Shown: piece by piece, positions 30,189 through 43,035 of the stretch
Numbering within the stretch: position 1 is the first letter of the stretch
Layout of the letters: each line of letters opens with the position of its first letter
Source: a virus
Taxonomy: Duplodnaviria; Heunggongvirae; Uroviricota; Caudoviricetes
Virus record (IMG/VR): IMGVR_UViG_2744054854_000007
Strand: one strand, 5' to 3'
Length of the DNA stretch: 44,225 nt
The notes under the pieces: model-generated
The model's input: the letters and a program-made list of their open reading frames with translations, nothing else
Told to the model about the DNA's origin: nothing
Database searches by the model: none
Program-made: the position numbers and the translations under genes

Positions 30189-30445
30189 CACTTCTTCTCG
30201 TTCTGCGCGGCCATATCCAGGTATCGCGGGTCGGATGATTTCGGTAGAGTCAGGCTTTGCTCTCGGTAGTAACGAACTCGCTCCATGAAGTATTCACGCA
30301 GATGATCTGGCTGCTCACGAGCTACCTGCTCAGCGATAACCGGCATGTTCAGGCGCTCTTTGTACGCTACGCCACTGGCAGCCAGGTCCACGTTAGCCTT
30401 GTCCTGCTCTTCTTTCGATTTTTCTGCGATATTAAAATGTGACAT
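30188..30445 (-). CDS. Hypothetical protein
   Basis: 85 aa; translationally coupled to neighbours. Confidence 0.4.
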
Positions 30446-30627
30446 TAATCTGCTGTTCTCCCTCTTTTTTTCCTCGTTTCGTAAGGAGACCTGTAACCAT
30501 CTACAGGGGCCACATCATCAGCCTCAAAGCGCTTAGCGTTTGCTATATCGGATTGAAGCCAGTGTTTTTTATATCGCTTCCTCGCCGCTTTGTATTTTTC
30601 GGCAGGTGTCATTTCTTCGTTTGACAT
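30445..30627 (-). CDS. Hypothetical small basic protein
   Basis: Internal ATG 30627 abutting terminator hairpin; start uncertain. Confidence 0.3.
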
Positions 30628-30655
30628 AAAAAATCCCCTTGAGTTATGGAGGGGA
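30628..30655 (-). terminator. Rho-independent terminator (minus strand)
   Basis: ATCCCCT/AGGGGAT stem, 9-nt loop, then T6 on the minus strand; about 120 nt 3' of secreted-protein gene. Confidence 0.5.
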
Positions 30656-30782
30656 TTATAGGTCAGGCCGCGATTTGTTTCGACTGGCATAGTTCCGGCA
30701 GGTTAGCCCTCACCAGTGCTACAGCGAACGGGGGCACAGCCAAAAATAAAAACCGCCTAACCTGGTTGAAATTCGTTCTATT

Positions 30783-31124
30783 TTATTTGCAGGTAAATTG
30801 CACTACATCACCCTGAGACATTTGAAAGAATCGGTAATCACCATCTCCACGTCTTTGTATAATATTGCCCTCTTTAGTCGCACCAGATGGGTATGTCTTT
30901 CCTTCCGGTTTTTCTGGCCTAATCTTGCTTGTGGTGTAAGAAATGGTCCCAAAGTTAACTGTTATTGAATTTCCGATGTCAGTTATATTTGCCTTTACTT
31001 CGCCGGATTTTACTTCATTTGAGGTCATACTCCTTGCTATTCCAGAGCATACATATTCCTTTGCTTCAACGGCATGGGGCATAAGAAAGCCAATTCCTAA
31101 CAACGTGATCGCCAAATATTTCAC
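30783..31124 (-). CDS. Small secreted protein (113 aa), candidate moron
   Basis: GTG 31124 seven nt after AAGGAG; VKYLAITLLGIGFLMPHAVEA/KE signal-like N-terminus; two Cys in mature part; AT-rich by eye. Confidence 0.5.
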   Translation of the reverse strand: MKYLAITLLGIGFLMPHAVEAKEYVCSGIARSMTSNEVKSGEVKANITDIGNSITVNFGTISYTTSKIRPEKPEGKTYPSGATKEGNIIQRRGDGDYRFFQMSQGDVVQFTCK

Positions 31125-31286
31125 TTTATCTTCTCCTTGATGAGTCCCCCTCGATACTTTGGGAGGGATTATACAAAAGAAAAGTGTGGTCATGGCTATT
31201 TTTGGTAATGTTATTCGATGATAATTCACTTTATTTTTTAAATCATAATGCTATATTTCTTTCACCCCTTGCTTGCAAGGTACAAC

Positions 31287-31378
31287 GGAGGGTTGGCCGA
31301 GTGGTTGATGGCACCTCACTGATAATGAGGCGTACGGGCTATAAACCCGTACCGCGGGTTCGAACCCCGCACCCTATT
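31287..31378 (+). tRNA. tRNA-like gene, class-II architecture, Ile-type anticodon loop CUGAUAA (GAU); possibly degenerate
   Basis: Hand-folded: D-arm GCC-GAGTGGTTGAT-GGC; anticodon arm CCTCA-CTGATAA-TGAGG; 23-nt variable hairpin; T-arm GCGGG-TTCGAAC-CCCGC; acceptor has one G:A mismatch and no encoded CCA; followed by a terminator. Confidence 0.4.
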
Positions 31379-31381
31379 TAA

Positions 31382-31414
31382 GGGGTCGACAAATGTCGGC
31401 CCCTTCTTCGTTTT
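31382..31414 (+). terminator. Rho-independent terminator (plus strand) after tRNA-like gene
   Basis: 9-bp stem GGGGTCGAC/GTCGGCCCC (one G-U), loop AAAT, then TTCTTCGTTTT. Confidence 0.6.
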
Positions 31415-31600
31415 ATACATCAAATTTGGCTCTACCCGCACCGCATTCCTACCTGCTAAAACTTCATCAATCACCTGCCATTGCGTAGCCGAGATTACCG
31501 CCGTCGCTTTGTGCTGCTGCTTTTATGAGTATTTCCTGTATCTCGTGCAGACGATCGAGTGATACAGGACCGTTCACCGGGTGGTTGTTAATTGTCATGG

Positions 31601-32078
31601 TTAGTCCTTCACAAAGATAATCCAATGGGTTTTGTCGTTCTTCCCAGTACGCTGACCAATTGCAGGTTTCACGTCAGTAAGAGCTAAAATCTGGCTAACC
31701 GGGATCTGCGTTTCGTTCCATTTGAAAATAAGCACGCCGCGCGGCCACAGCACCCGAAACGCTTCTTTGAAACCGGCGCGTAAGTCAGAGCGCCACGTTT
31801 TTTTTGTTCAGTCGCCCGTATTTTTTACCCATCCAGGCAGACTGGCCCACGCGCTCGAGGTGCGGCGGGTCAAACACCACAACCGGAAAAGAAGAATCAG
31901 CGAACGGCAGTGAACGAAAGTCTGAAATCAGGTCTGGACTGATAACCAGGCGGCGACCGTCGCACAGTTCGTGCTCTTCGGCGCGAATATCAGTGAACAC
32001 GGCGCGGGTGTCCTGCTTGTTGAACCAGAACATGCGGGAGCCGCAGCACATATCAAGAATCGTCGTGTTGTCGGTCAT
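31601..32078 (-). pseudogene. Dam-like DNA methyltransferase interrupted by a frameshift at an A8 homopolymer
   Basis: N-terminal frame MTDNTTILDMCCGSRMFWFNKQ...VVVFDPPHLE stops 4 codons after the A8 run (31798-31805); the shifted frame continues ...TWRSDLRAGFKEAFRVLWPRGVLIFKWNE... to TAA at about 31601; removing one A restores a ~159-aa ORF. Confidence 0.5.
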
Positions 32079-32386
32079 ACTGATGCTCTCCCGTAAAACG
32101 CCAGTACACGCTGCATAGCCGGACTTGTGCGGCATACGGATGTGACCATGTTTTTTCTCACTTTCGATTTGAGTTGCTTGATATTCTGCTCGCCACCGGG
32201 CTGAAGCGAATAGACCGGGCGATGCGGCTCGCCAGTGCGGATTACTACCGTTTTGCGTACTAGGTGAAGCAGCAGGTTGTGTGCCTTCTTGCAGTCGCAT
32301 CCCAGCAGGCTCTGAACCTGACGAGGGGTTATGGTCTGGTTAACCCGAAGGAAATCGACGATTGCCCACAGTGATTTGCTTGCCAT
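32075..32386 (-). CDS. Hypothetical protein (103 aa)
   Basis: ATG 32386; stop overlaps methyltransferase ATG (ATGA). Confidence 0.45.
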   Translation of the reverse strand: MASKSLWAIVDFLRVNQTITPRQVQSLLGCDCKKAHNLLLHLVRKTVVIRTGEPHRPVYSLQPGGEQNIKQLKSKVRKNMVTSVCRTSPAMQRVLAFYGRASV

Positions 32387-32404
32387 AGTGATTTGCCCTC
32401 GAAG

Positions 32405-33154
32405 TTATTTAACGATCCGGAGATGGCTAACGTTCTTGCGATAGCTGCCCCAGTCAAAGTTCACCCACATTCCGCCATCCATCTGGAGACGGTCGATAAC
32501 CCGCGCACCCAACGCCACGAGAAGCTCGTCGTGGTTCAGGTTTGTCAGGATCCCCACCGGACGCATCGACGACAGGCGACGGTCGATAACCTGATTCAGA
32601 ATGACTTTCTCGCCGTTACTTCCACGCTGAATACCGACTTCATCCAGCACCAGCAGATCGACTTTGCAGAGGTCATCCAGCAATGCGGCCTCTGACTGAC
32701 CACCGTCGTAGCACTCGCGAACGCGTAGCATCAGGTCAGGGATAGTGACGACCAGCACGCTATGCCCGCCAGAAAGCAAATGATTTCCGATTGCTGCAGC
32801 GAGATGGTTTTTCCCGGTACCAGGGCCACCGCTAAACACGAAGCTCGCGAACCCAGCACCGAAATTCTGTGCGTAGCTCTTTGCCATCGTGAAGGCTTTG
32901 CGCTGCCCTTCCCCGGATACATGGTAATTCTCGAAAGTGCAGCTGCGGTGCAGGCTTTGAATTCCTGAGCGACCGAAAATTTTCTCTGTCCGGGCTTTCT
33001 GATTCAGCCTGTCCAGTTCTTCACACCGCTTCAGGCCTTCTTCCCTCTGCCATGCCAGCAGCTCTTCCGCGCTGGTGAACTTCGGCTGAACTCCTGGCGG
33101 AATGAGTTTCTTCAGGCGCTCAAGAGCGCTGCCAGAATTAACAATGTTTTTCAC
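32405..33154 (-). CDS. DnaC-like replicative helicase loader (AAA+ ATPase)
   Basis: 249 aa; Walker A GGPGTGKNHLAAA and Walker B LLVLDEVG; GTG start with AGGGGG SD two nt after the O-like stop. Confidence 0.85.
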   Translation of the reverse strand: MKNIVNSGSALERLKKLIPPGVQPKFTSAEELLAWQREEGLKRCEELDRLNQKARTEKIFGRSGIQSLHRSCTFENYHVSGEGQRKAFTMAKSYAQNFGAGFASFVFSGGPGTGKNHLAAAIGNHLLSGGHSVLVVTIPDLMLRVRECYDGGQSEAALLDDLCKVDLLVLDEVGIQRGSNGEKVILNQVIDRRLSSMRPVGILTNLNHDELLVALGARVIDRLQMDGGMWVNFDWGSYRKNVSHLRIVK

Positions 33155-33156
33155 CG

Positions 33157-34104
33157 TTACCCCCTGAACCCGGTCGGGATGGTTTTATCTGGCTCAGAAA
33201 TTCGGTTGGGATCTCGCTGTCCAACATGGACGGTCCTTTGGCCGTGACCACGCGATTGCAACAGACTGTTGGCAAAGGTCTGCTCCCAAGCCAACTGGTG
33301 TTTAACCTTGCCGTCAGGTATCCAGTAATCACGGAATTGCTGGAGCTCTTCAGCGGTGTAACCTGGCTCAGTGCCGACGTTCTTACCCCAGAGCGCAGCC
33401 TGACGCACGAAGTCTGGAGACGGGGTCCATGAGTCAGTGATCGGAAATTTACCCAATGGGCCAAAATCCAGACCGGGCCCAAAATCCTCGTTCTGAGGTT
33501 TGGGAGGGATAGCTGGCAGAGGTGGGTGATTTCCAGAAATATCATCCCCAGAATGACTTCCGCCCGCGCGTTCTCTCTCTGGGTTTAGATCTTCTCTTCT
33601 CTTCTCTTCTCTGTGGTTACGCGTTACGTTATTAGTAACGTTACTCGTTACGTTACTTTCCTGGAGTTTTTTCCGTTCACGAAACTCCTTCTGGCGCTGC
33701 GCATTTGTCTTGGCCGTAGCTGAGCGCATATCACCTGACGTATTGTATTCATTGAAGTTTGGAAGAATGACGCAGTTATTCTCCGCATCATAAATGGCCC
33801 AGCCTACGGTTGATAATGCAGCCCCAAAACCGGGTACTCCGACAATATCATCGATATCAGACAGGTCTGCATTTTCAAATACACCGTTACGCGAGTGTTC
33901 ATTTGCCGCAGACCAAAACGTTACTAGTAACGACACCGTAACGTTACGGGTTACGTTACGCGTTACAACGTCTGATAACGTGGTGTTATGCGAAAGTGTG
34001 AACATTTTTCCCACCTCCGGTGAACGCTCCAGTATTCGCGCAATTCCGTTCACCTTCGGGCTGGTGACCAGTGATGTACGCATCTTTATCCAGTCTCCGG
34101 CCAT
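33157..34104 (-). CDS. Replication initiator/replisome organiser (lambda O-like) with embedded iteron-like repeats
   Basis: ATG 34104 with AGGAGG SD; repeated NVT codons encoded by GTTAC repeats; position upstream of DnaC-like gene. Confidence 0.65.
   Translation of the reverse strand: MAGDWIKMRTSLVTSPKVNGIARILERSPEVGKMFTLSHNTTLSDVVTRNVTRNVTVSLLVTFWSAANEHSRNGVFENADLSDIDDIVGVPGFGAALSTVGWAIYDAENNCVILPNFNEYNTSGDMRSATAKTNAQRQKEFRERKKLQESNVTSNVTNNVTRNHREEKRREDLNPERERAGGSHSGDDISGNHPPLPAIPPKPQNEDFGPGLDFGPLGKFPITDSWTPSPDFVRQAALWGKNVGTEPGYTAEELQQFRDYWIPDGKVKHQLAWEQTFANSLLQSRGHGQRTVHVGQRDPNRISEPDKTIPTGFRG
33613..33660. repeat. Iteron-like GTTAC(G) repeat cluster A (candidate ori) inside O-like gene
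   Basis: About five direct GTTAC units plus inverted TAGTAAC within 48 bp; preceded by (CTTCT)x4 microsatellite at about 33591-33612. Confidence 0.5.
33917..33970. repeat. Iteron-like GTTAC/GTAAC repeat cluster B inside O-like gene
   Basis: GTTACTAGTAAC and CGTAACGTTACG palindromes plus direct GTTACG units. Confidence 0.5.
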
Positions 34105-34271
34105 TAAGTCCTCCTGAAGAATAATTAAGGGAAGATTTATCCAGTCGCGGTCCGACACGCTGGCAAAACAATTTGTTGTTAGGCATACTTACCCCGCAAT
34201 GATTTCGCAATGAATTGCACCAGAAAGCCGTTGGTGTTCGCGCACCGCGGCTTTCGCCATTTTTGAACCGG

Positions 34272-34811
34272 TCATATAGCCCCCAGCATCATCTGCACCA
34301 TCTCCATCAGCGGCCCGGTTAAGCCAGGGTCAACGCGGTACATCTCCACGATCCCCTCGCTCAACTCTTTCAGCTTCTGATGACGTGGAGCATCCATCGC
34401 GACGGCTATCTTCGCTTCGCTGGTTTCTTTCTCCATACGCGCCAGACGAGCCATAACGTTGTCTTCTGGTAGCAGACGGTTGCGGTACTTGAGCGGCAGA
34501 ACAGCAAGAATTGCCGGAGTCAGCTGGCGGACGTTCTCGCGGTATCTTTCACTGTTGAAATGGTTGTCCAGGAAGCGGAAAAGCTTCTGACGCTGTCGGC
34601 TGAGGTCATCAGGGAAAGTGATCTCGTCTCCCCCTTGCGCCTGGTACTCTTCGATGATCAGAGCAGAAACGACATCCTGACCATCTACACCCGCCCATGA
34701 GCGAACGGCATCACGAATATCTTCATGGCTAGGTCCCTTGCACGCTTGAGCACGATTTATCACCGCCTGCTGCGGCGATCCTGTATCCTGGTAAAACGTA
34801 AGTGATTGCAT
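34272..34811 (-). CDS. Putative CII-like lysogeny regulator
   Basis: 179 aa; position between cro-like and O-like genes; family uncertain. Confidence 0.35.
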   Translation of the reverse strand: MQSLTFYQDTGSPQQAVINRAQACKGPSHEDIRDAVRSWAGVDGQDVVSALIIEEYQAQGGDEITFPDDLSRQRQKLFRFLDNHFNSERYRENVRQLTPAILAVLPLKYRNRLLPEDNVMARLARMEKETSEAKIAVAMDAPRHQKLKELSEGIVEMYRVDPGLTGPLMEMVQMMLGAI

Positions 34812-34842
34812 AGTGCAGTCCCTTGATGGTTAGCGCCGCCGG

Positions 34843-35073
34843 TCAGGCGGCTGAATGTGGATGCGGAAACAATTCAGGAAGGTCGGGACGGAATTCATGA
34901 GCTTGAATCTGTCCTTCGCTTGCCTTTACCAAAACAGGAACATGGATCGGGGAGATTTGTTTTTTCCCATTTAACCAGTCACAGACCGTGGATTGGGCCT
35001 TACCACATCGCTTCGCTAGCTCTTTCTGACTACCGGCGATTGCAATCGCTTTTTCTACAGCAGGGTTTTTCAT
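34843..35073 (-). CDS. Cro-like HTH regulator
   Basis: Internal ATG 35073; HTH GSQKELAKRCGKAQSTVCDWLNG; divergent from the CI-like gene across operator palindromes. Confidence 0.65.
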   Translation of the reverse strand: MKNPAVEKAIAIAGSQKELAKRCGKAQSTVCDWLNGKKQISPIHVPVLVKASEGQIQAHEFRPDLPELFPHPHSAA

Positions 35074-35109
35074 AATCGCTCCTTCTATCAATTTAGGTTG
35101 ATTATGTTT

Positions 35110-35169
35110 ATCGCTTTAACGAATGTCAATCGCCTATGCGATTTTTTGCTTATTAATCGCTGTGGCGAT
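35110..35169. promoter_or_regulatory. Operator region: three ATCGC-N4/5-GCGAT-type sites between cro-like and cI-like genes
   Basis: Palindromes ATCGCctatGCGAT (about 35129-35142) and ATCGCtgtgGCGAT (about 35156-35169) plus imperfect ATCGCtttaaCGAAT (about 35110-35124). Confidence 0.6.
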
Positions 35170-35202
35170 AATATTTATGAAGGTTATTAGGGGGTATCTT
35201 TA

Positions 35203-35886
35203 ATGAGTTTTTCTGAGCGATTAGATCGCGCAATGAATGAGGCGGGTTATACACAGGGCAAGCTAGCTAAGGCAGTTGGCATGGCACAGTCAAGTGTTAA
35301 CAAGCTGCTAAATGGTGCATCAAGCTCAAGAAAAACGGTCGAGATAGCTTCTGTTCTCAATGTTCGCCCTGAATGGCTTTCCACGGGATCCGGACCGATG
35401 CGTAACGATGGCCAGCTACCGCCTCCCATTACCGCGACAAAAAAAGACTCAAACATATTCAGAGTTGACGTACTTGACCTGACATTTAGCGCGGGGCCAG
35501 GTTCTTTCATGATTTCTGAGTTTGTTGAGGTTCTACACGCCATTGAGTTCACAACCGAACACGCTCGTTCACTCTTCGGAAATCGTTCTCAGGAAGACGT
35601 AAAAGTAATGACGGTCGATGGCGACAGCATGTGTCCAACTATACAGTCTGGTGACAGATTGTTTTTCGATATTTCTGTAAGAAACTTCAAGGTCGACGGT
35701 GTTTATGCGTTCGTTTTCGGACAACATTTCCATGTGAAGCGCTTGCAGATGCAGGGCGATAGGTTGGCAGTTTTGTCTGATAACTCAGCTTATGAGAAGT
35801 GGTACATTAACGAAGGTAATCAGGATCAACTCTACGTAATGGGTAAGGCATTGATTCATGAATCAATAAAGTATAACCGATTGTAA
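35203..35886 (+). CDS. CI-like repressor (HTH + S24 LexA-type autopeptidase domain)
   Basis: 227 aa; N-terminal HTH QGKLAKAVGMAQSSVNKLLNG; C-terminal GDSM Ser and downstream Lys in the S24-type arrangement. Confidence 0.85.
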   Translation: MSFSERLDRAMNEAGYTQGKLAKAVGMAQSSVNKLLNGASSSRKTVEIASVLNVRPEWLSTGSGPMRNDGQLPPPITATKKDSNIFRVDVLDLTFSAGPGSFMISEFVEVLHAIEFTTEHARSLFGNRSQEDVKVMTVDGDSMCPTIQSGDRLFFDISVRNFKVDGVYAFVFGQHFHVKRLQMQGDRLAVLSDNSAYEKWYINEGNQDQLYVMGKALIHESIKYNRL

Positions 35887-35930
35887 AACTGTACTTTTTA
35901 TCTACTTTGGCCCAGAAAAGGATCATAATT

Positions 35931-36293
35931 ATGAAATCGGAATTATTTCATAGTGAAGCAAACTCCGAGATTATCACAGCGGATGAGTTCATTGATTTCA
36001 TAAATTCATTCAAAAAACCAATAACTTGCCAAATCTGCGGGAACCAGTCATGGTCTGTAGTTGGTGCCTTTGATCTTGATGTAGAAGAAAATCAGCCAAA
36101 ACATCATGTGATCGAAACACTTAGTTATGCACAATACAAACCTGATACTGATAGTGCTGTGACATATCCTGGCGGTATGCCACTATTTCGAATCACGTGT
36201 GATCACTGCGCACATGTACTGCTTTTTTCTTATAAAAAAGCCAGGACACTGATTAATAAAAGAAAAGAAGATCAAGGAGAGGATGGGAAGTGA
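35931..36293 (+). CDS. Zn-ribbon-like small protein, cargo gene 1 downstream of cI
   Basis: ATG 35931 (track ORF begins at TTG 35907); CQICG...CDHCAH cysteine pairs; AT-rich by eye. Confidence 0.5.
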   Translation: MKSELFHSEANSEIITADEFIDFINSFKKPITCQICGNQSWSVVGAFDLDVEENQPKHHVIETLSYAQYKPDTDSAVTYPGGMPLFRITCDHCAHVLLFSYKKARTLINKRKEDQGEDGK

Positions 36294-36922
36294 TGGGCCC
36301 ATCTCTCAAAGCTGTCCCAGACTGCGGTTCTGGCATTGATAAAGATGACCTGTACCCCAATGTTCAAAACAGACTACGCGTCGATAAAGAAGAAATGTAT
36401 ACTAACTTTATCAAATCAACAGATGAAGCTAATGAAACTGATGGGGGAAATGAAATGTCATCAGTTAGCCGTGAAGAAATGCAAGCACTTCTAGCTGCCA
36501 ATAAGGCGGAGATGGAGTCCATTGCATCTTCGATTAGAGCTGAAATGGCTTTGTCACGCGAGAATATGAACGTTCAGCTGGCATCGCTCAATTCATCTAT
36601 TAGCTCTATTTCTTCTAAAATTGAAGGGAAAATGGATAGCGTTGATGGGGATGTAAAAGCCATCAATGGCAAATTCGAAGGTATACAAGGGCAAATTACA
36701 GGAATAAACACTGCGATTGGCGGTATTCAATCAGGTATTTCCACTAGGCTTGCTATTTTTGGCGTTATCATTGCGGTTGTCGTTGCATTACCTAGTCTTG
36801 TTTCTGCCTTGAAGAGTGATCCGCCCGTAGTTCAACCAGTAGCGCAGCAACCTGTTATCATCCAATTACCTCAAGAACCAACTACTCCACGAGTACTTCA
36901 CCAACAGGAAAAATCAAAGTAA
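36293..36922 (+). CDS. Coiled-coil protein with C-terminal transmembrane anchor, cargo gene 2
   Basis: ATG 36293 overlapping upstream TGA; heptad-like Ser/Ile/Glu-rich region; hydrophobic LAIFGVIIAVVVALPSLVSAL near C-terminus then Pro/Gln-rich tail. Confidence 0.5.
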   Translation: MGPSLKAVPDCGSGIDKDDLYPNVQNRLRVDKEEMYTNFIKSTDEANETDGGNEMSSVSREEMQALLAANKAEMESIASSIRAEMALSRENMNVQLASLNSSISSISSKIEGKMDSVDGDVKAINGKFEGIQGQITGINTAIGGIQSGISTRLAIFGVIIAVVVALPSLVSALKSDPPVVQPVAQQPVIIQLPQEPTTPRVLHQQEKSK

Positions 36923-36945
36923 ACCGGCATTATGCCGGTTTTCAT
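36921..36945 (+). terminator. Terminator-like hairpin (plus strand) after cargo gene 2
   Basis: AACCGGC-attat-GCCGGTT then TTTCATATT; U-tract imperfect. Confidence 0.45.
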
Positions 36946-37482
36946 ATTCCTTTTCTCACCATAGCAGTGACATCCCACAACACTCCTTTGTGAATCACAT
37001 TTCCAACCGCGCGACGCTTAGTCTCCAAGCTATCTACTATCGCATCTCGACTTATCACCACACCGTTGATTATCTACTCGACAACTGCACCGCCAATCTC
37101 GCCAGCCATGAAAGCAGCGCGATCTTCCAGCAGCTCATCACGTGACATATCCATTCCTAAACCCATATCAATATCCCCGCCTGGTGTTTTTTTGAGCATA
37201 TCACGCATCTCATACAAAAATAAATCACTTTATAAATCAAATAAAAATCGGCAAAATCACAATATTATCGTTTAAGCGATTGATAAAATAAATCGCCTTA
37301 GCTATCATCACCCCATCGAGAAACACTAAGCGCATCAAGTTCAAACGTTCCGCTGGCCTGGCGACAAGGGCAAAGCACAGAGTGAGCTTCGCGGTGGTGA
37401 ACTGCAGAGTTAAAACGCTCAACTGTGAAGATCAGCACCACGGCGCCACCAGCGAAGTTCACTCAGAAAACTGGAGAACATC

Positions 37483-37689
37483 ATGGTTCATCAGCACTAC
37501 GGTACACAGACGGTAAACCGCGGCGCAGTTCAGCCGGGGATGCTCGTCAAACACAAAGACTCAACCTGGACGGCATCAGCTAACGCTCGCGGACGTTTGT
37601 ATCTGCATCGCGGCGTAGAAATGACTTACACCAAGGATTTGCTGGTTGAAGTTTATCTGAACGGTCTGGGGCATGGACTCAGCCACTAG
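37483..37689 (+). CDS. Hypothetical early protein (68 aa)
   Basis: ATG 37483 with GGAG SD; first gene of plus-strand early operon. Confidence 0.4.
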   Translation: MVHQHYGTQTVNRGAVQPGMLVKHKDSTWTASANARGRLYLHRGVEMTYTKDLLVEVYLNGLGHGLSH

Positions 37690-37700
37690 CGGAGGATGTC

Positions 37701-37862
37701 ATGTTAGACAAGAAATGCGGATATTGCGGCAAGCCGGTTAAAACGGAGGAAGTAATCAAGAGCACCCTTCTCTATCGCAACGGCTCACAGCTGGCGCGCA
37801 AAGAAAAAGAGTATTGCTCCAAACGTTGCGCTTCGCACGACCAGATGGCTCACGAAGGCTAA
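37701..37862 (+). CDS. Small Cys4 zinc-ribbon protein (53 aa), not in ORF track
   Basis: ATG 37701 six nt after GGAGG; CGYCGK...CSKRCA cysteine pairs; stop TAA 37860-37862. Confidence 0.45.
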   Translation: MLDKKCGYCGKPVKTEEVIKSTLLYRNGSQLARKEKEYCSKRCASHDQMAHEG

Positions 37863-38001
37863 CGTAAAACCCGCGCAAGGCGGGATCTACGTCCGGTGGT
37901 ACCGACCAAAGTTACACCGGAAACAACATTAAAACCAAAGTTAACCCAATGGGCGCTATCAATGGTCCGGGGATTCTAACACCCAAAAATGAGGATCTCA
38001 C

Positions 38002-41000
38002 ATGGAATTCTTTAATGTGGTTAAAGCCACTCAGAAATCCGGAAAGCAAGATGCAGTGGTCTGGTTCACTGCTAAAACCGAGGCTCGCGCCAATCTGATG
38101 CTGGATGTTGCGCTGGAAGATGCAGGTATCGAAACAGGTCGGGGTAAGGACTACGCCAAACCGATTCGCACTGATTTCCCAGTTGTCGACGGCCTGCCGA
38201 AAGAAGGTGAAGTTGATTTTACCTGGTGTGATCGCTACGAGCTTCAGGACGATGGGCGCACCTGGCTGCCAAAAGCCGCTGGTGTGTCTACTGGTTCCGT
38301 TTACGCCCCCTCCACACCTACTCCGACCGTAATCGTTGAAGATGCGACTGCGTCCGAAATTGTCCCGGTTGAAAACCGTACTCCAGCGGTCCGCTTTGCC
38401 GTCCATCTGATGAACGATAAATACCAAACCCACGTCACTAAAGAGCAGCAGTTGGCTGCCAGCGAAATGTCACTGGATGAAGGCAATACATATCTCCATA
38501 GCCTGCTTGTGGCAAGGAACGATGTGCCCGCGACCGCCAAACTCAGCCTGAATGCTGAGTGGAAAATGATTCGGGCGGTTAAGGACATTTTCACACCAGA
38601 CGAAGAGCACGAACCAAGATTGATCGCTGCATTCATGTCTGACTGGGTGAACACCGATGCCGGTGACCGCAATCAACTGGTAGAAGACTGGCGCAGTGGT
38701 AAGTTGCAGTTGCTCAAAACTGAAACCAGCAACGCTGCTGACGTTACAACGGGTCAAGATCTCACTGTTGAGGACGGTATCCAGACCGACGAGAACGGCC
38801 GGGCAGAAGGTGGCGTCGTTGATGGTGAAGTCGATACCGAAGAGCAATCCCAGCAGACACAGCAACCGAACCTGATCGTTGTTGCCACCCTGCCATTCCG
38901 CCAGCGCGTACTGGCTCAGTTCATCGGTGATGGTGAATATCTCTATCACATCGACGCAGGGCAGAAAAATGAGATTGTCCGCCTTGAGATGGACACCGAT
39001 GACGCGTACGTCCAGAACCTGCTGCTGGCAGCTGAGAATGTGGAAGCATTCAAAAAAGCCATTGAGCACGATATTCATAAAGTCGTGAATGCCGTTAAGA
39101 AAGTCTTCCCTGTCGATGGAAAAATCCCTGAACTCGCAACCTTAATCCAGTTTTTGAAATTGTGGTTCGCTACAGATCACATCGACCGCGGTATCCTCGT
39201 TCGCGAATGGGCCGCCGGTAATCGCATCAGTAGTGTGCAGCGTACTGATTCCGGCACTAATGCCGACGGCGGTTACGTCACTGACCGTGGACCTGACGCA
39301 CACCACACACTGGACACTCTCGATTTAGAGATTGCGTGTGCCCTTCTGCCTATGGACTTCAACCACTTCGAGATCCCGGGCAGCATTCTTCGTCGCGCTA
39401 AAGAAATCGTGACCAAAAAAGAAGAACCATGGAAATCATGGAGCAACATCCTGCGCAATCAGCCAGGTGTTCTGGGTGTTAACCGCACGGCTATTTTTAA
39501 CCTGGTACGTATCGCACCGGAAAATATTCATTTAACTCCTGTCGCTCACCTGGAATTTGTTAACCAGACCATGACAGCCGCGTTCAATTCCGCGGTCGAG
39601 TTATTGCCGTTGCATGAGGCTGAACCCGCAGCACAGGAAATTCCCCAACCTGAAGGTAAGGAGTCTCCGCGCAAATCCTTCTGCACTCACGAAGAGAACC
39701 TGCAACGCGTGCGTGAAGAAGGAGCACGCCGCCGCGCAGAGGAAGCGGCAGCACAACCGCAGAAAGTCGAACAAGAACTGGTTAAAAATGTCGGCAACGG
39801 AATATTCGACGTTACGGCTTTGCTGCAGAACTCAGCAACTCATGGCACGAAAAAGGCTACGGAGACCACCAGCAATGTGCAGGTTCAAGAAACTGTCAGT
39901 GATGAAAAACAAGCTGGTGATGAAGTACAGCCAGGCGAAAGCAGTCTGGAGTCTGGTGAAGAGTCAGATACCAGCCAGAAGGACGATGTAAACCAGAATA
40001 CGGATTCTGTCGCCAAAAATAGCGATTCTGTAAGCCAAACCGAACCAGTTGCAGCACAAACCGAGCCAGAAGCGCAATCTGACGAACCAGCTGTTGTTTA
40101 TCCCGCTTATTTCGAGCCAGGCCGCTATGAAGGGCTGCCAAACGAGGTTTACCACGCCGCCAACGGCATCAGCTCAACCCAGGTGAAAGATGCGCGCGTT
40201 TCGCTGATGTACTTCAATGCGCGCCACGTAGAGAAAACCATCGTCAAAGAGCGCTCAGCGGTGCTGGACATGGGCAACTTGGTGCATGCGCTGGCGTTGC
40301 AGCCTGAACTACTGGACGCAGAATTCAGCGTTGAACCGGTGATCCCTGAAGGCGCATTCACAACGGCCGCGACCCTGCGCGCCTTTATCGATGAGCACAA
40401 TGCCAGCCTGCCGGCGCTGCTGTCTGCCGACGACATCAAGGTGTTACTGGAAGAGTACAACGCCACCCTGCCGCCGCAGGTTCCGCTTGGCGCTAACCTG
40501 GAAGAAACGGCACAGAACTATATGGCGCTGCCAGCTGACTTCCAGCGTATTGATGGTGACCAGAAGCAGACGGCGACGGCAATGAAGGCATGCATTAAAG
40601 AGTACAACGCCACCCTGCCGCCGCCGGTTAAAACCAGCGGCAGCCGTGACGCGCTGCTGGAGCAGTTGGCAATCATCAACCCTGACCTTGTGGCTCAGGA
40701 AGCACAGAAACCGGCACCACTGAAAGTGTCCGGTACCAAAGCAGACATGATCCAGGCCGTGAAGGCAGTCAAACCAGATGCCGTATTTGCCGACGAACTG
40801 CTGGATGCCTGGCGCGATAACCCGGAAGGAAAAGTGCTGGTCACCCGCCAGCAGCTGAGCACCGCGCTGAATATTCAAAAAGCGCTTCTGGCACACCCGA
40901 CCGCCGGCATGCTGCTGACCCACCCTAGCCGAGCCGTTGAGGTGAGCTACTTTGGTTTTGACGAGGAGACGGGCTTGGAAGTTCGTGTGCGCCCTGACCT

Positions 41001-41391
41001 TGAGATCGACCTGGATGGCGTGCGTATAGGTGCAGACCTGAAAACCATCAGCATGTGGAATGTTAAGCAGGAAAGCCTGCGCGCCAGGCTACACCGGGAA
41101 ATTATTGAACGTGATTATCACCTGAGCGCGGCTATGTACTGCGAAACCGCAGCGCTGGATCAGTTCTTCTGGATTTTCGTCAACAAAGACGAGAACTACC
41201 ACTGGATCGCCATCATCGAGGCATCCGCTGAACTACTGGAGCTGGGTATGCTCGAGTACCGCAAAGCGATGCGCAATATCGCAACCGGATTCGACACAGG
41301 TGAATGGCCAGCGCCAATCACTGCTGACTACACCGACGAACTGAACGACTTCGACCTGCGCCGCCTTGAAGCGCTGCGTACTCAGGCATAA
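38002..41391 (+). CDS. RecE-like exonuclease VIII (large N-terminal extension, C-terminal nuclease domain)
   Basis: 1129 aa; ATG 38002 with GAGGA SD; C-terminal region reminiscent of RecE; immediately upstream of annealase gene. Confidence 0.65.
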   Translation: MEFFNVVKATQKSGKQDAVVWFTAKTEARANLMLDVALEDAGIETGRGKDYAKPIRTDFPVVDGLPKEGEVDFTWCDRYELQDDGRTWLPKAAGVSTGSVYAPSTPTPTVIVEDATASEIVPVENRTPAVRFAVHLMNDKYQTHVTKEQQLAASEMSLDEGNTYLHSLLVARNDVPATAKLSLNAEWKMIRAVKDIFTPDEEHEPRLIAAFMSDWVNTDAGDRNQLVEDWRSGKLQLLKTETSNAADVTTGQDLTVEDGIQTDENGRAEGGVVDGEVDTEEQSQQTQQPNLIVVATLPFRQRVLAQFIGDGEYLYHIDAGQKNEIVRLEMDTDDAYVQNLLLAAENVEAFKKAIEHDIHKVVNAVKKVFPVDGKIPELATLIQFLKLWFATDHIDRGILVREWAAGNRISSVQRTDSGTNADGGYVTDRGPDAHHTLDTLDLEIACALLPMDFNHFEIPGSILRRAKEIVTKKEEPWKSWSNILRNQPGVLGVNRTAIFNLVRIAPENIHLTPVAHLEFVNQTMTAAFNSAVELLPLHEAEPAAQEIPQPEGKESPRKSFCTHEENLQRVREEGARRRAEEAAAQPQKVEQELVKNVGNGIFDVTALLQNSATHGTKKATETTSNVQVQETVSDEKQAGDEVQPGESSLESGEESDTSQKDDVNQNTDSVAKNSDSVSQTEPVAAQTEPEAQSDEPAVVYPAYFEPGRYEGLPNEVYHAANGISSTQVKDARVSLMYFNARHVEKTIVKERSAVLDMGNLVHALALQPELLDAEFSVEPVIPEGAFTTAATLRAFIDEHNASLPALLSADDIKVLLEEYNATLPPQVPLGANLEETAQNYMALPADFQRIDGDQKQTATAMKACIKEYNATLPPPVKTSGSRDALLEQLAIINPDLVAQEAQKPAPLKVSGTKADMIQAVKAVKPDAVFADELLDAWRDNPEGKVLVTRQQLSTALNIQKALLAHPTAGMLLTHPSRAVEVSYFGFDEETGLEVRVRPDLEIDLDGVRIGADLKTISMWNVKQESLRARLHREIIERDYHLSAAMYCETAALDQFFWIFVNKDENYHWIAIIEASAELLELGMLEYRKAMRNIATGFDTGEWPAPITADYTDELNDFDLRRLEALRTQA

Positions 41392-41396
41392 GGGGA

Positions 41397-42515
41397 ATGA
41401 TGATGGAAAACACGAATATCGTAACCGCTGAACAGCAGACTCCAAACACGATCTCAGCCAGCAATGCCATTTTCAACGTGCAGGCTTTAACCCAGCTTCA
41501 GTCTGTCGCCGGGTTGATGGCACAGGCAGCCGTAACGGTGCCTGAGCACCTCCGCGGCAATCCGGCAGACTGCATGGCCATCATCATGCAGGCGATGCAG
41601 TGGGGTATGAACCCTTACGCCGTGGCGCAAAAGACGCACCTGGTTAACGGTGTCCTGGGATACGAAGCGCAACTGGTTAATGCGGTGATCTCCAGCTCAA
41701 ACGCCATCGTTGGCCGCTTTCACTATGAGTACGAGGGCGACAGGTCGAAATGTGCCAGCAGCCGCGAGATAACCGTTAAAAAGCCTGCGAAAGGTGGCGG
41801 GACGTACGACAAGAAAGAAATGGTACGCGGTTGGGAAAGTGCTGATGAACAAGGACTGTCGGTACGGGTAGGTGCCGTTATTCGCGGTGAAAGTGATATC
41901 ACCTGGGGAGAGCCTGTTTTCCTCTCCAGCGTAATCACACGTAATTCTCCACTTTGGGTATCAAACCCGAAACAGCAGATCGCTTATCTGGCACTCAAAT
42001 ACTGGGCGCGCCTATATTGCCCTGCAGTTGTTCTTGGTGTGTACACCCCTGATGAGATTGAACAGCGCACAGAAAAAGAGATCAACCCAACGCCGCAACG
42101 CGTTAGCCTGGCTGATATCTCAGGTGACACCGTCACAACCACGCAAAGCGCACAGGAATCGTCGGTAAATGTCGACTCTCTTGCCGATGATTTCCGCGAA
42201 CGCATCGAATCTGCTCAGGACGTGGATAGCGCCAAATCGCTGCGTGCCGACATTGAAACGGCGAAAGCTACGCTGGGATCCGCACTATTCACCGAGCTGA
42301 AAAACAAAGCCGTAAAGCGTTATTACCTAGTGGATGCACGCAACAAGGTTGAGGAGGCTATTAAATCCCTGCCCCAGCCCGACGAGCCGCATGCAGCCGA
42401 ACGGTTCGCTGAAGCCGAGCGCATGCTTGCATCTTCAAAGCGTCACTTAGGCGATGAACTGCACGATCAATTCAGCATCACCCTGGCGGATATGAAACCG
42501 GAATACGTGGCCTGA
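41397..42515 (+). CDS. Single-strand annealing protein (Red-beta/RecT superfamily)
   Basis: 372 aa; by-eye similarity to lambda Bet in two blocks (...AIIMQAMQWGMNPY... and ...NPKQQIAYLALKYWARL...). Confidence 0.75.
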   Translation: MMMENTNIVTAEQQTPNTISASNAIFNVQALTQLQSVAGLMAQAAVTVPEHLRGNPADCMAIIMQAMQWGMNPYAVAQKTHLVNGVLGYEAQLVNAVISSSNAIVGRFHYEYEGDRSKCASSREITVKKPAKGGGTYDKKEMVRGWESADEQGLSVRVGAVIRGESDITWGEPVFLSSVITRNSPLWVSNPKQQIAYLALKYWARLYCPAVVLGVYTPDEIEQRTEKEINPTPQRVSLADISGDTVTTTQSAQESSVNVDSLADDFRERIESAQDVDSAKSLRADIETAKATLGSALFTELKNKAVKRYYLVDARNKVEEAIKSLPQPDEPHAAERFAEAERMLASSKRHLGDELHDQFSITLADMKPEYVA

Positions 42516-42553
42516 CGAGACCGGGAGGGGTAACCCTCCCTCAAGGAGATTAT

Positions 42554-42796
42554 ATGCGACTGATCAATCGAGGAAGTAAGCAATCACCTTTAGCTCGCCA
42601 AGCATGCGACATCGCGCTGGCAGCTCACTTGCAAACATATGGCGACTATGGGCGAAGCAAGATGAAAGAGACTTATACGGTGAAGGTTGAAGGCGTGAAA
42701 GTCTGGGTGGAGGTGGTGAACCGAAAGGCGAGCTACGTGGCCACAGCGATGACCGGCATGCGCCGTCTCCGCTCCCTGCCCGGGCAGGTTGGTTGA
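42554..42796 (+). CDS. Hypothetical protein (80 aa)
   Basis: ATG 42554 with AAGGAG SD. Confidence 0.45.
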   Translation: MRLINRGSKQSPLARQACDIALAAHLQTYGDYGRSKMKETYTVKVEGVKVWVEVVNRKASYVATAMTGMRRLRSLPGQVG

Positions 42797-42837
42797 AAAA
42801 GATTTTGAATGGCCCGAACGGGCAACTGGAGAGAGCT

Positions 42838-43035
42838 ATGGATGATATTTTGGTAACGTCAGACCTGACCAGTCGCTACAAAATTTCACGCAAAACCCTT
42901 TGGTCATGGCAAAGTGCAGACACAATGCCTCGGGGCTTCGTATGCCCGTTCCCACCCCCTGACTGGCCCGGCAACCCTAACCGCTGGCGCTCTGAGTCAA
43001 TCAAAGAGTGGGAGGATAAAAAGAAGATAAATTAA
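42838..43035 (+). CDS. xis: Excisionase/AlpA-like small DNA-binding protein
   Basis: ATG 42838 with GGAGAG SD (track ORF starts at upstream TTG); ...[22 protein letters not shown]... HTH; stop overlaps integrase stop. Confidence 0.55.

What the first reader, a model, noticed from the sequence alone, without database searches (positions are those of the whole stretch)
35076..35200. Operator palindromes in the cI-cro intergenic region, with a similar half-site pattern about 2 kb away
Seen in sequence: ATCGCctatGCGAT and ATCGCtgtgGCGAT with centres 27 bp apart plus an imperfect third site, all within the roughly 130-bp divergent promoter region. A related ATCGtttaaGCGAT lies at about 37265-37280 upstream of the plus-strand early operon (possible OL). 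Inference: tripartite OR-like switch and a second operator controlling the recE/recT/xis operon.
Basis: seen in the sequence. Interest (0 to 1): 0.35.

Follow-up and report, generated by a model that had tools for sequence, protein, structure and literature searches.

The report
Prophage repressor operator sites OR and OL
The short palindromes are very probably the DNA sites where this E. coli prophage's repressor and its Cro protein bind to control the lysis-lysogeny switch, which is an ordinary lambda/434-style arrangement with a binding sequence I could not find described.

Summary
ATCGC-N4-GCGAT occurs exactly twice in 44 kb (35129-35142 and 35156-35169; 0.08 expected). Both copies lie in the 129-bp gap between a divergent cI-like repressor gene (HTH + S24 peptidase, 35203-35886) and a Cro-like gene (YdaS family, 35073-34843).

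A weight matrix built only from distant relatives picks five sites in the window, well ahead of every other position:
- three at OR: 35110, 35129 and 35156;
- two at OL: 37267 and 37292.

Each site overlaps a predicted promoter. PR and PRM diverge at OR. PL lies upstream of kil-ydaE-recE-recT-xis.

At least 120 IMG/VR viral contigs and four Klebsiella phages carry the same layout. In all of them cI has the recognition helix MAQSSVNKLL, or a one- or two-residue variant of it. cI relatives that are 72-78% identical overall but have other helices keep the 5-N4-5 architecture with other half-sites (ATAAC, ATAGC, ATACG), and the Cro helix changes with them.

The cI DNA-binding domain resembles that of the 434 repressor, whose operator is also 14 bp. 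Binding itself is inferred, not shown. This is a new member of a known kind, of low to moderate interest.

The parts
35110..35123 (.). OR site A (OR1 position): ATCGCTTTAACGAA. Its right half is imperfect. It fills the spacer of PR and abuts the -35.
   Evidence: It has 2 mismatches. Its PWM score is 16.1, fifth best in the window, against 10.4 for the best background hit. It is conserved 19 bp from site B in 55 distinct relatives, with consensus ATC[A/G]C-N4-GCGA[A/T]. Among window-like variants the half-sites are kept while the central 4 bp vary.
35129..35142 (.). OR site B (OR2 position): the perfect palindrome ATCGCCTATGCGAT. It lies between the -35 of PR (1-nt overlap) and the -35 of PRM (3-nt gap).
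   Evidence: Exact match. PWM score 20.4. It is perfect in 52 of 52 distinct upstream regions chosen by cI protein homology alone.
35156..35169 (.). OR site C (OR3 position): the perfect palindrome ATCGCTGTGGCGAT. It lies in the PRM spacer and overlaps the -10 by 1 nt.
   Evidence: Exact match. PWM score 16.5. It is perfect in 49 of 52 protein-selected relatives, with 1 mismatch in the other 3.
35101..35129 (-). PR-like promoter for cro: -35 TTGACA (35129..35124), 17-nt spacer, -10 CATAAT (35106..35101). The predicted start is near 35094.
   Evidence: 11 of 12 consensus match. The TGTCAA and ATTATG hexamers are nearly invariant in relatives. The start site is inferred.
35146..35174 (+). PRM-like promoter for cI: -35 TTGCTT (35146-35151), 17-nt spacer, -10 TAATAT (35169-35174). 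The predicted start is near 35181, which puts the centre of site B near -45.
   Evidence: Read from the sequence. It falls below the scan threshold. Relatives conserve the equivalent TTGC[TC]A-17-TAGAGT at the same position. Inferred.
35203..35886 (+). cI-like repressor, 227 aa. It has a 434-like HTH domain (recognition helix Q29-S-S-V-N-K34) and an S24 autopeptidase domain (Ala97-Gly98, Ser142, Lys179).
   Evidence: Pfam HTH_3 and Peptidase_S24. phrog_4 at 1e-57. Residues 2-62 align to the 434 repressor DNA-binding domain at E 4e-5. The catalytic and cleavage residues were read from the translation.
34843..35073 (-). Cro-like protein, 76 aa, YdaS family. Its recognition helix is AQSTVCDWLNG. 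A GAAGGAG Shine-Dalgarno sequence lies upstream.
   Evidence: Pfam YdaS_toxin PF15943 at 1.6e-14. phrog_35. Its helix co-varies with the cI helix and the operator across relatives.
34272..34811 (-). YdaT-family CII-like regulator, the second gene of the PR operon.
   Evidence: Pfam YdaT_toxin at 1.5e-25. phrog_163, CII-like activator.
37267..37280 (.). OL2: ATCGTTTAAGCGAT. It overlaps the -35 of PL by 1 nt, the same geometry as site B at PR.
   Evidence: 1 mismatch. Top PWM score, 20.6. In almost every relative with enough downstream DNA it is paired with OL1 exactly 25 bp away.
37292..37305 (.). OL1: ATCGCCTTAGCTAT. It lies in the PL spacer and overlaps the -10 by 3 nt. Its single mismatch (GCTAT) is the T needed by the -10 hexamer TATCAT.
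   Evidence: 1 mismatch. PWM score 18.3. The GCTAT right half is invariant in 74 relatives.
37280..37308 (+). PL-like promoter: TTGATA-17-TATCAT. The predicted start is near 37315.
   Evidence: 10 of 12 consensus match. Relatives have TTGAC[TC]-17-TATTGT or TATTAT at the same place relative to the OL pair.
37247..37251 (.). Possible remnant of OL3. Only the half-site ATCGG is present where many relatives have a full third site 21 bp upstream of OL2.
   Evidence: Sequence read. The OL3 consensus in relatives is ATC[A/G]C-TTTA-NCGAT. Weak; may be nothing.
37483..43035 (+). Early operon downstream of PL: kil (37483-37689), ydaE (37701-37862), recE (38002-41391), recT (41397-42515), DUF4060 (42554-42796) and an excisionase-family ORF (42793-43035).
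   Evidence: Pfam, PHROGs kil phrog_294 and excisionase phrog_1553, and RefSeq annotation. That these genes form one transcription unit is inferred.
36921..36941 (.). Strong bidirectional terminator hairpin. It ends the cI-moron transcription unit before OL/PL.
   Evidence: Terminator scan. Folding energy -12.9 kcal/mol, z -5.2.

Best explanation
**What it is.** The 14-bp dyads A-T-C-G-C-N4-G-C-G-A-T are the operator sites of this E. coli prophage's immunity system.

**Who binds (inferred).** A dimer of the cI-like repressor, which has a 434-type helix-turn-helix, recognises each dyad through helix 3 (Q29-S-S-V-N-K34). The YdaS-family Cro, with helix AQSTV..., recognises the same sites.

**At OR.**
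- Site A lies in the PR spacer and site B at the PR -35. Together they would block PR, and so cro, the ydaT-like cII gene and the replication genes.
- Site B is centred near -45 of PRM, which places it to activate cI transcription.
- Site C lies in the PRM spacer and -10. It would give negative autoregulation by cI, and shut-off of cI by Cro.

**At OL.** Two sites, about 2.1 kb away, cover the -35 and -10 of PL. They would silence kil, recE, recT and xis in the lysogen.

**Induction.** RecA-stimulated self-cleavage of cI at Ala97-Gly98 would lift repression.

**Shown versus inferred.** Shown here:
- the sites exist and are non-random;
- their positions relative to promoter consensus elements;
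- their conservation in relatives;
- their co-variation with the recognition helices.

Inferred:
- the binding itself, the order of site occupancy, and activation at PRM;
- cooperativity or OL-OR looping;
- SOS inducibility.
For: **Statistics.**
- 2 exact sites against 0.08 expected.
- 2 close pairs of near-matches against 0.003 expected.

**Independent weight matrix.** A PWM built only from relatives that are not window-like scores exactly five window positions at 16.1-20.6. All five are in the two promoter regions, and the next best hit scores 10.4.

**Promoter overlap.** PR matches 11/12 and PL 10/12. The sites abut or overlap the hexamers with the same 1-nt geometry at both promoters (sequence).

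**Gene context.** cI (HTH + S24), YdaS-type Cro and YdaT-type CII.

**Conservation.**
- At least 120 viral contigs have the exact B-N13-C arrangement.
- After removing duplicate loci, 113 remained. Their cI is 33-100% identical overall, yet helix 3 stays MAQSS[VI]N[KR]LL apart from a few single substitutions at the Asn. Nearly every locus with enough downstream DNA has an OL pair 25 bp apart, 0.9-2.9 kb downstream.
- In loci chosen by protein homology only, site B is perfect in 52 of 52 and site C in 49 of 52.

**Double dissociation.** cI proteins 72-78% identical to this one, but with a different helix 3, have different half-sites in the same 5-N4-5 frame. The Cro helix changes in step:
- HK639: QPAIQK with ATAAC;
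- L006, L009 and L012: QPS[VI]WK with ATAGC;
- L007: QPTIWR with ATACG.

**YdaT not required.** Klebsiella phage Mulock has the same operators but a lambda-type CII instead of YdaT, so YdaT is not needed for these sites.

**Structural analogy.** The cI N-terminal domain aligns to the 434 repressor DNA-binding domain. The Gln that contacts operator base A1 in 434 is conserved here, and the 434 operator is also 14 bp (the contact itself is established knowledge from the structures 2OR1 and 1RPE).

**Experimental precedent.** A YdaS-type Cro and a cI analogue bind overlapping operators at PR/PRM and at a PL in prophage CP-933P (PMC8630535).
Against: - There are no binding or expression data for this element or any close relative. 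The exact operator strings were not found in the searchable literature.
- The PRM hexamers fall below the scanner's threshold and rest on my reading plus conservation.
- Site A, at the position where lambda has its strongest site, is the weakest match (2 mismatches).
- The centre-to-centre spacings are unequal: 19 and 27 bp at OR, and 25 bp at OL. The cooperativity pattern therefore cannot be read off from lambda.
- No intact OL3 is present in the window.
- The shared ancestry of the relatives inflates apparent conservation.
Confidence: 0.88

Rival explanations
1. The palindromes act as RNA hairpins, as intrinsic terminators or attenuators, rather than as protein-binding DNA sites.
For: The terminator scan flagged 35128-35143 (followed by TTTTTT) and 35156-35169 as terminator-like on the + strand.
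Against: - The stems are only 5-6 bp, at -5.5 and -5.6 kcal/mol. The real terminator at 36921-36941 folds at -12.9 kcal/mol.
- Sites A and OL1 essentially cannot fold (-0.8 and -0.2 kcal/mol), yet they are conserved as half-sites.
- The sites lie upstream of, or within, the promoters, so most would not be transcribed in a sense that matters.
- In relatives the conservation follows the half-site sequence, not compensatory base pairing.
Confidence: 0.02
2. The sites are bound by only one of the two regulators, either cI alone or Cro alone, or by the YdaT-type CII-like protein, rather than being shared cI/Cro operators.
For: - YdaT of CP-933P is a DNA-binding repressor with its own inverted-repeat operator near ydaS (PMC9986795).
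- The Cro here belongs to a different fold family (YdaS) from cI, so shared recognition is not guaranteed.
Against: - Both the cI helix and the Cro helix co-vary with the half-site across five specificity groups, and the two helices share their first residues within each phage (AQSS/AQST, SQPA/SQPA, QPSVW/QPSVW, QPTIW/QPTVW).
- Mulock has identical operators but no YdaT.
- The CP-933P YdaT motif TTGATT-N6-AATCAA is not enriched in the window: 18 matches against 23.8 expected.
- In CP-933P, both PaaR2 and YdaS footprint the same intergenic region (PMC8630535).
Confidence: 0.07
3. The repeats are chance or compositional features of an AT-rich intergenic region and have no regulatory role.
For: Two of the six matches with at most 1 mismatch (34396 and 43825) are consistent with background.
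Against: - Exact matches: 2 against 0.08 expected.
- Clustered pairs: 2 against 0.003 expected.
- There is a clear PWM score gap between the five sites and all other positions.
- Position and sequence are conserved in relatives whose cI is only 33-63% identical.
Confidence: 0.01

Closest known systems
Phage 434 repressor/Cro with OR1-3 and OL1-3 (14-bp operators ACAA-N6-TTGT; structures 2OR1, 1RPE, 1PER, 3CRO)
   Same: - The cI N-terminal domain is homologous to the 434 repressor DNA-binding domain.
- The operators are 14 bp, with conserved outer bases, a variable non-contacted centre and A at position 1.
- The Gln at the start of helix 3 is conserved.
- Clusters of sites overlap PR/PRM and PL.
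- The C-terminal domain is a self-cleaving S24 peptidase.
   Different: - The half-site is ATCGC, not ACAA. Five outer bases are conserved rather than four.
- Helix 3 is QSSVNK rather than QQSIEQ.
- The Cro is a YdaS-family protein, not a 434-Cro paralogue of the repressor domain.
- Site spacings differ.
- Only two intact OL sites are present.
Phage lambda OR/OL switch (cI, Cro, PR, PRM, PL)
   Same: - The overall logic and geometry match: three OR sites across divergent PR and PRM, with the middle site next to the PRM -35.
- OL lies about 2 kb away, at the promoter of the recombination/excision operon.
- Extra genes sit between cI and OL, in the position of rexAB.
   Different: - The operators are 14 bp rather than 17 bp.
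- The cI mRNA from PRM is predicted to have a leader and a Shine-Dalgarno sequence, so it is not leaderless.
- No N gene is evident after PL.
- The site at the OR1 position is the weakest consensus match.
- CII is of the YdaT type.
CP-933P (E. coli O157:H7) PaaR2-YdaS-YdaT switch, and Rac racR-ydaS-ydaT
   Same: - Both have a YdaS-family Cro and a YdaT-family CII transcribed divergently from the repressor.
- In CP-933P the repressor and YdaS were shown experimentally to footprint overlapping operators at PR/PRM and to regulate a PL (PMC8630535).
- The PL-side genes here (kil, ydaE, recE, recT) are Rac-like.
   Different: - The repressor here is a cI with an S24 peptidase domain, not PaaR2 or RacR.
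- The operators are unrelated in sequence and length: an 18-bp GTTTAGTAA-type palindrome in CP-933P.
- There is no paaA2-parE2 toxin-antitoxin cargo.
Phage HK639 immunity region (cI 72% identical), and Klebsiella phages Mulock, ST11-VIM1phi8.1, ST512-KPC3phi13.1 and ST13-OXA48phi12.5
   Same: - HK639 has the same gene order (cI, YdaS-type Cro, YdaT-type CII) and the same 5-N4-5 operator architecture at OR and OL.
- The Klebsiella phages carry the same ATCGC operators, the same cI helix 3 and the same OR/OL geometry.
   Different: - The HK639 half-site is ATAAC and its helix is QPAIQK, so it is predicted to be heteroimmune.
- The Klebsiella phage cI proteins are only about 62% identical overall, and Mulock has a lambda-type CII and an intact OL3.
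- In none of the records I examined (HK639 and Mulock) are the operators annotated.

Membership tests
Lambdoid immunity switch (cI-OR-cro plus OL) | Divergently transcribed repressor (HTH + S24 autopeptidase) and small Cro-like HTH protein | tested here: met
   cI is at 35203-35886 (+) and cro at 35073-34843 (-), with a 129-bp gap.
Lambdoid immunity switch (cI-OR-cro plus OL) | Several copies of one inverted-repeat motif in the intergenic region, overlapping two divergent promoters | tested here: met
   Three sites. PR comes from the scan. PRM comes from my reading plus conservation, so the PRM part is weaker.
Lambdoid immunity switch (cI-OR-cro plus OL) | A second cluster of the same motif overlapping the early promoter on the other side of cI | tested here: met
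   OL2 and OL1 lie on the -35 and -10 of TTGATA-17-TATCAT. The pair is conserved in relatives.
Lambdoid immunity switch (cI-OR-cro plus OL) | Operator sequence tracks the recognition helix of the repressor and Cro across heteroimmune relatives | tested here: met
   There are five helix/half-site groups, with dissociation in both directions.
Lambdoid immunity switch (cI-OR-cro plus OL) | Repressor and Cro physically bind the sites and control PR, PRM and PL | not testable with these tools
   This needs EMSA or footprinting and reporter assays.
Lambdoid immunity switch (cI-OR-cro plus OL) | Self-cleavage site and Ser/Lys dyad for RecA-dependent induction | tested here: met
   Ala97-Gly98, Ser142 (GDSM) and Lys179 were read from the translation. 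Peptidase_S24 matches at 5e-17. Activity was not tested.
434-type repressor-operator pair | N-terminal domain homologous to the 434 repressor DNA-binding domain | tested here: met
   phmmer E 4.3e-5 to 2r63 and 1per over residues 2-62.
434-type repressor-operator pair | 14-bp dyad operator with conserved outer bases and a variable centre | tested here: met
   Logos from 55-92 relatives.
434-type repressor-operator pair | ACAA outer half-site (434 immunity specificity) | tested here: not met
   The half-site is ATCGC. The specificity is different, so this is not 434 immunity.
434-type repressor-operator pair | Cro is a paralogue of the repressor DNA-binding domain (434 Cro fold) | tested here: not met
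   The Cro matches Pfam YdaS_toxin and PDB 8co2/8c7k. It does not match 434 Cro.
CP-933P / Rac type YdaS-YdaT module | YdaS-family Cro followed by a YdaT-family CII-like gene | tested here: met
   PF15943 and PF06254.
CP-933P / Rac type YdaS-YdaT module | PaaR2/RacR-type repressor and its operator motifs (18-bp GTTTAGTAA palindromes; YdaT site TTGATT-N6-AATCAA) | tested here: not met
   The repressor is an S24 cI. The YdaT motif is not enriched. The operator motif is different (PMC8630535).
Intrinsic terminator | Stable GC-rich hairpin followed by a U-tract, downstream of a transcription unit | tested here: not met
   Folding energy is -5.5 kcal/mol at best, and two of the five sites do not fold. 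The sites lie in promoter DNA.

The most novel reading that the evidence does not exclude
This prophage belongs to a clade of 434-like cI/YdaS-Cro switches in Enterobacteriaceae that forms a natural series of specificity swaps. The architecture A-N-N-N-C-N4-G-N-N-N-T stays fixed, and the inner half-site positions change: CG, AA, AG or AC at positions 3-4, with position 2 also differing in one group (ACAAC).

These changes track residues 2, 3 and 5 of helix 3 in both cI and Cro:
- QSSVN with ATCGC;
- QPAIQ with ATAAC;
- QPSVW with ATAGC;
- QPTIW with ATACG;
- QAAIQ with ACAAC.

If the co-variation reflects direct readout, it gives a compact natural recognition code, usable to design orthogonal repressor/operator pairs. 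It would also show two unrelated folds (cI HTH_3 and YdaS) converging on the same code.

A further oddity worth testing is that the site at the OR1 position is consistently the weakest consensus match in this immunity group. That may mean an occupancy order unlike lambda's.
Probability: 0.5. Interest if true: 0.45.

Novelty: new member of a known kind. Interest (0 to 1): 0.27.

Why it matters
- **Regulatory map.** It pins down the map of a Rac-like, recET-carrying prophage that is rare in E. coli. This immunity region occurs in 5 of 5426 complete genomes.
- **Predicted immunity group.** It predicts that the prophage shares immunity specificity with a large group of Klebsiella-type temperate phages.
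- **Testable series.** It adds an uncharacterised operator specificity (ATCGC-N4-GCGAT, helix QSSVNK) to the 434-like repressor family. The closely related natural variants could serve as a ready-made series for studying, or engineering, repressor-operator specificity.
- **No new mechanism.** It does not change how such switches are thought to work.

Tried and rejected
- **Terminator or hairpin reading.** Rejected on folding energies.
- **YdaT (CII-like) as the binder.** Rejected for two reasons. The CP-933P YdaT motif is not enriched, and Mulock keeps the operators without YdaT.
- **LexA box.** By eye, no CTGT-N8-ACAG overlaps the sites.
- **Rfam scan of 30000-44225.** Nothing relevant to the switch or the PL leader. 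It found only the tRNA and two sub-threshold hits.
- **PADLOC scan of the two genes downstream of cI.** No hits.
- **Megablast of the immunity region against the phage collection.** Only the kil region matched. The related phages had to be found by protein search or by sensitive blastn.
- **Genome-contig scan with cI.** Only 7 loci were returned. These were useful for the heteroimmune comparison but not for conservation.
- **Literature.** Papers mentioning HK639 hold nothing on operators. The exact operator strings occur in no searchable paper.
- **My first automatic start-codon and half-site caller.** It mis-called some cI starts and left a 'none' group. I replaced it with anchored extraction.
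- **Inverted-repeat search in 34700-35210 for a further operator.** It found only the B/C pair.
- **The palindrome 35087-35102 (ATCAA-N6-TTGAT) at the PR start.** It is not conserved in relatives and I treat it as chance.

Full report
**1. What is in the sequence**

The finding sits in the 129-bp gap between two divergent genes.
- On the + strand, 35203-35886 encodes a 227-aa protein with HTH_3 and Peptidase_S24 domains that matches phrog_4, 'transcriptional repressor'. Read directly from the translation, it has an Ala97-Gly98 pair, a GDS142M serine and Lys179. This is the usual self-cleavage set of LexA/cI proteins.
- On the - strand, a 76-aa HTH protein starts at ATG 35073, preceded by GAAGGAG. 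It belongs to the YdaS family (Pfam PF15943, phrog_35).
- Downstream of it lie a YdaT-family CII-like gene (34811-34272), a DnaT-domain replication protein and a DnaC/IstB-like ATPase.

The window is 100% identical to a prophage in E. coli 2018-10-1CC. This immunity region occurs in only 5 of 5426 complete E. coli genomes.

**2.

ATCGC-N4-GCGAT occurs exactly twice in 44,225 bp, on either strand: at 35129-35142 and 35156-35169, with centres 27 bp apart. Shuffles expect 0.08 matches.

With at most 1 mismatch there are six matches:
- the two exact sites;
- two isolated hits at 34396 and 43825, which equal the background expectation of about 2.

In 300 Markov simulations, pairs of such sites within 40 bp occurred 0.003 times per window. 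The window has two such pairs.

**3. An independent site model finds five sites**

I built a symmetrised weight matrix only from relatives that are not window-like, whose cI is about 60% identical or less to this one. Scanned over the window, it gave these scores:
- 37267: 20.6
- 35129: 20.4
- 37292: 18.3
- 35156: 16.5
- 35110: 16.1
- best remaining position: 10.4

OL in this prophage has two good sites. Where many relatives have a third OL site 21 bp upstream of OL2, only a lone half-site (ATCGG, 37247-37251) remains.

**4. Relation to promoters**

The consensus scan finds two strong promoters:
- PR on the - strand: TTGACA (35129..35124), 17 nt, CATAAT (35106..35101), an 11/12 match.
- PL on the + strand: TTGATA (37280-37285), 17 nt, TATCAT (37303-37308), a 10/12 match.

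The sites relate to these promoters as follows.
- Site A fills the PR spacer, next to the -35.
- Site B overlaps the PR -35 by one base.
- OL2 overlaps the PL -35 by one base, which is the same geometry as site B at PR.
- OL1 lies in the PL spacer and shares three bases with the -10. This explains why its right half is GCTAT in every relative.

For cI, I read a PRM of TTGCTT (35146-35151), 17 nt, TAATAT (35169-35174). It falls below the scanner's threshold. The equivalent TTGC[TC]A-17-TAGAGT is conserved at the same place in relatives. Site C then occupies the PRM spacer and touches its -10. Site B is centred near -45 of PRM, close to where lambda OR2 sits. These start sites and the activation are inferences.

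Downstream of PL lie kil (phrog_294), ydaE, recE, recT, DUF4060 and an excisionase-family ORF (phrog_1553). The integrase gene is on the opposite strand. A strong terminator at 36921-36941 (-12.9 kcal/mol) closes the cI transcription unit before OL.

**5. Comparative evidence**

*Same specificity, diverged proteins.*
- After removing duplicate loci, 113 remained. Their cI is 33-100% identical to this one overall, yet helix 3 stays MAQSS[VI]N[KR]LL apart from a few single substitutions at the Asn.
- Nearly every one with enough downstream DNA has an ATCGT-N4-GCGAT / ATCGC-N4-GCTAT pair exactly 25 bp apart, 0.9-2.9 kb from OR.
- To avoid circularity, I also collected loci by protein homology to one of these cI proteins. 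In 52 distinct upstream regions, site B is perfect in 52, site C is perfect in 49 (1 mismatch in the other 3), and site A has at most 2 mismatches in 44.
- Site A has consensus ATC[A/G]C-N4-GCGA[A/T] across 55 variants. Within the window-like group, its half-sites stay fixed while the central four bases vary.
- Four isolated Klebsiella phages share this OR: Mulock, ST11-VIM1phi8.1, ST512-KPC3phi13.1 and ST13-OXA48phi12.5.

*Similar proteins, different specificity.* cI proteins that are 72-78% identical overall, but differ in helix 3, have different half-sites in the same 5-N4-5 frame and at equivalent positions.

| Source | cI helix 3 | Cro helix | Half-site |
|---|---|---|---|
| Window | QSSVNK | AQSTVCDW | ATCGC |
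| HK639 | QPAIQK | SQPAVHKW | ATAAC |
| Enterobacter, Mixta and Pseudocitrobacter loci | QPS[VI]WK | KQPSVWAW | ATAGC |
| Kluyvera locus | QPTIWR | AQPTVWRW | ATACG |
| One IMG/VR locus | QAAIQK | SQAAVQKW | ACAAC |

This dissociation in both directions is the strongest argument that the palindromes are read by helix 3 of both cI and Cro.

Mulock carries the same operators but has a lambda-type CII in place of YdaT.

**6. Structural analogy**

Residues 2-62 of cI align to the 434 repressor DNA-binding domain at E 4e-5. In that alignment, 434 Gln28 corresponds to Gln29 here, and this Gln is invariant in all the relatives compared. In the 434 co-crystal structures (2OR1, 1RPE; established knowledge), Gln28 contacts adenine 1 of a 14-bp operator.

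Here too the operator is 14 bp, begins with an invariant A and has a variable centre. Lys/Arg34 is also conserved, alongside the invariant C5. Residues 30, 31 and 33 vary together with the inner half-site positions. The residue-to-base assignment is a hypothesis.

The Cro is not 434-like. Its nearest solved structures are 8co2 and 8c7k, deposited as 'antirepressor protein Cro'.

**7. Mechanism proposed**

- In the lysogen, cI dimers occupy A and B, shutting PR, and OL1 and OL2, shutting PL.
- cI at B stimulates PRM. At high cI concentration, site C is filled and PRM is throttled.
- After DNA damage, RecA-stimulated cleavage at Ala97-Gly98 removes cI.
- Cro made from PR then binds the same sites and keeps PRM off, presumably through site C first.
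- OL-OR looping over 2.1 kb is possible but untested.

The sites, their positions, their conservation and their co-variation are shown. Binding, order of occupancy, activation, cooperativity and inducibility are inferred. An experimental precedent exists: in CP-933P, a YdaS-type Cro and a cI analogue share operators at PR/PRM and at a PL (PMC8630535).

**8. Rivals**

- *Hairpins or terminators.* The best stems reach only -5.5 kcal/mol, and two of the five sites cannot fold.
- *YdaT binding.* The known YdaT motif is not enriched, and YdaT is dispensable in Mulock.
- *Chance.* Excluded.

**9. Comparison and novelty**

This is a standard lambdoid immunity switch. It has a 434-type repressor domain and operator length, a Rac/CP-933P-type Cro and CII, and an operator specificity (ATCGC-N4-GCGAT) that I could not find described. 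The exact strings are absent from the searchable literature, and the operators are not annotated in the HK639 or Mulock records.

It fails membership of '434 immunity' (different half-site, different Cro fold). It also fails membership of the CP-933P/Rac repressor type (the repressor here is an S24 cI). It does work like both.

I rate it a new member of a known kind, of low to moderate interest. The most interesting by-product is the natural series of specificity swaps in this cI/Cro clade.

**10. Caveats**

- PRM is called by eye.
- Site A, at the OR1 position, is the weakest match.
- The spacings (19 and 27 bp at OR, 25 bp at OL) are unlike lambda's, so the occupancy order could differ.
- Relatives share ancestry, which inflates conservation counts.

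Noticed in passing
window 35075-35088: ATCGCTCCTTCTAT (2 mismatches) overlaps the cro Shine-Dalgarno sequence and start codon. Most protein-selected relatives (50 of 52) have a 2-mismatch site at the same offset, reading ATCACCTCAGCTAT, built from half-site variants seen in bona fide sites. It could be a weak fourth operator over the cro ribosome-binding site, or just the constraint of the SD and start codon.
   Followed up: partly
window 35035-35050: An everted arrangement of the operator half-sites, GGCGAT-TGCA-ATCGCT, lies inside the cro coding sequence (codons AIAIAG). The terminator scan flagged it. Mulock has GCGAT-GGAA-ATCGC at the same place. The meaning is unknown; it may be a coding coincidence.
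   Followed up: no
window 37315-37482: The roughly 170-nt leader between PL and kil folds into a long imperfect hairpin at about 37380-37465 (-54 kcal/mol, z -2.5). From 37343 on, it is 93% identical to the region annotated Kil in phage mEp237. HK639 has a putL antiterminator RNA at the equivalent position. No Rfam family matches here, and no N-like gene is evident.
   Followed up: partly
window 35907-36922: Two genes of unknown function (phrog_4293; phrog_5820, a coiled-coil protein with a C-terminal hydrophobic segment) follow cI, in the position of lambda rexAB, and end at a strong bidirectional terminator. There are no PADLOC or informative Pfam hits. They are candidates for a lysogen-expressed exclusion or defence function.
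   Followed up: partly
window 31287-31378: A 92-nt tRNA-Ile (anticodon GAT) lies inside the prophage (ARAGORN; Rfam 46 bits; annotated in RefSeq). It is unusually long for an Ile tRNA.
   Followed up: partly
window 36942-37148 (-) and 31601-32078 (-): RefSeq marks a small minus-strand gene just upstream of OL as a pseudogene with an internal stop. It also marks a SAM-dependent methyltransferase as frameshifted. Both are signs of some decay in the prophage.
   Followed up: no
window 35087-35102: The palindrome ATCAA-N6-TTGAT spans the predicted PR start. It is not conserved in relatives and does not match the orientation of the CP-933P YdaT site. Probably chance.
   Followed up: partly
window 37864-37960 (-): A weak, sub-threshold Rfam match to the isrB Hfq-binding sRNA (28.6 bits against a gathering score of 35, E 0.09) lies between ydaE and recE.
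   Followed up: no
L002 (HK639) 3920-3985 and 6525-6590; L006, L007, L009, L012 upstream of cI: Each heteroimmune relative has its own set of three 5-N4-5 dyads at OR: ATAAC, ATAGC or ATACG. HK639 also has such dyads at OL. The operators are not annotated in the HK639 record.
   Followed up: yes
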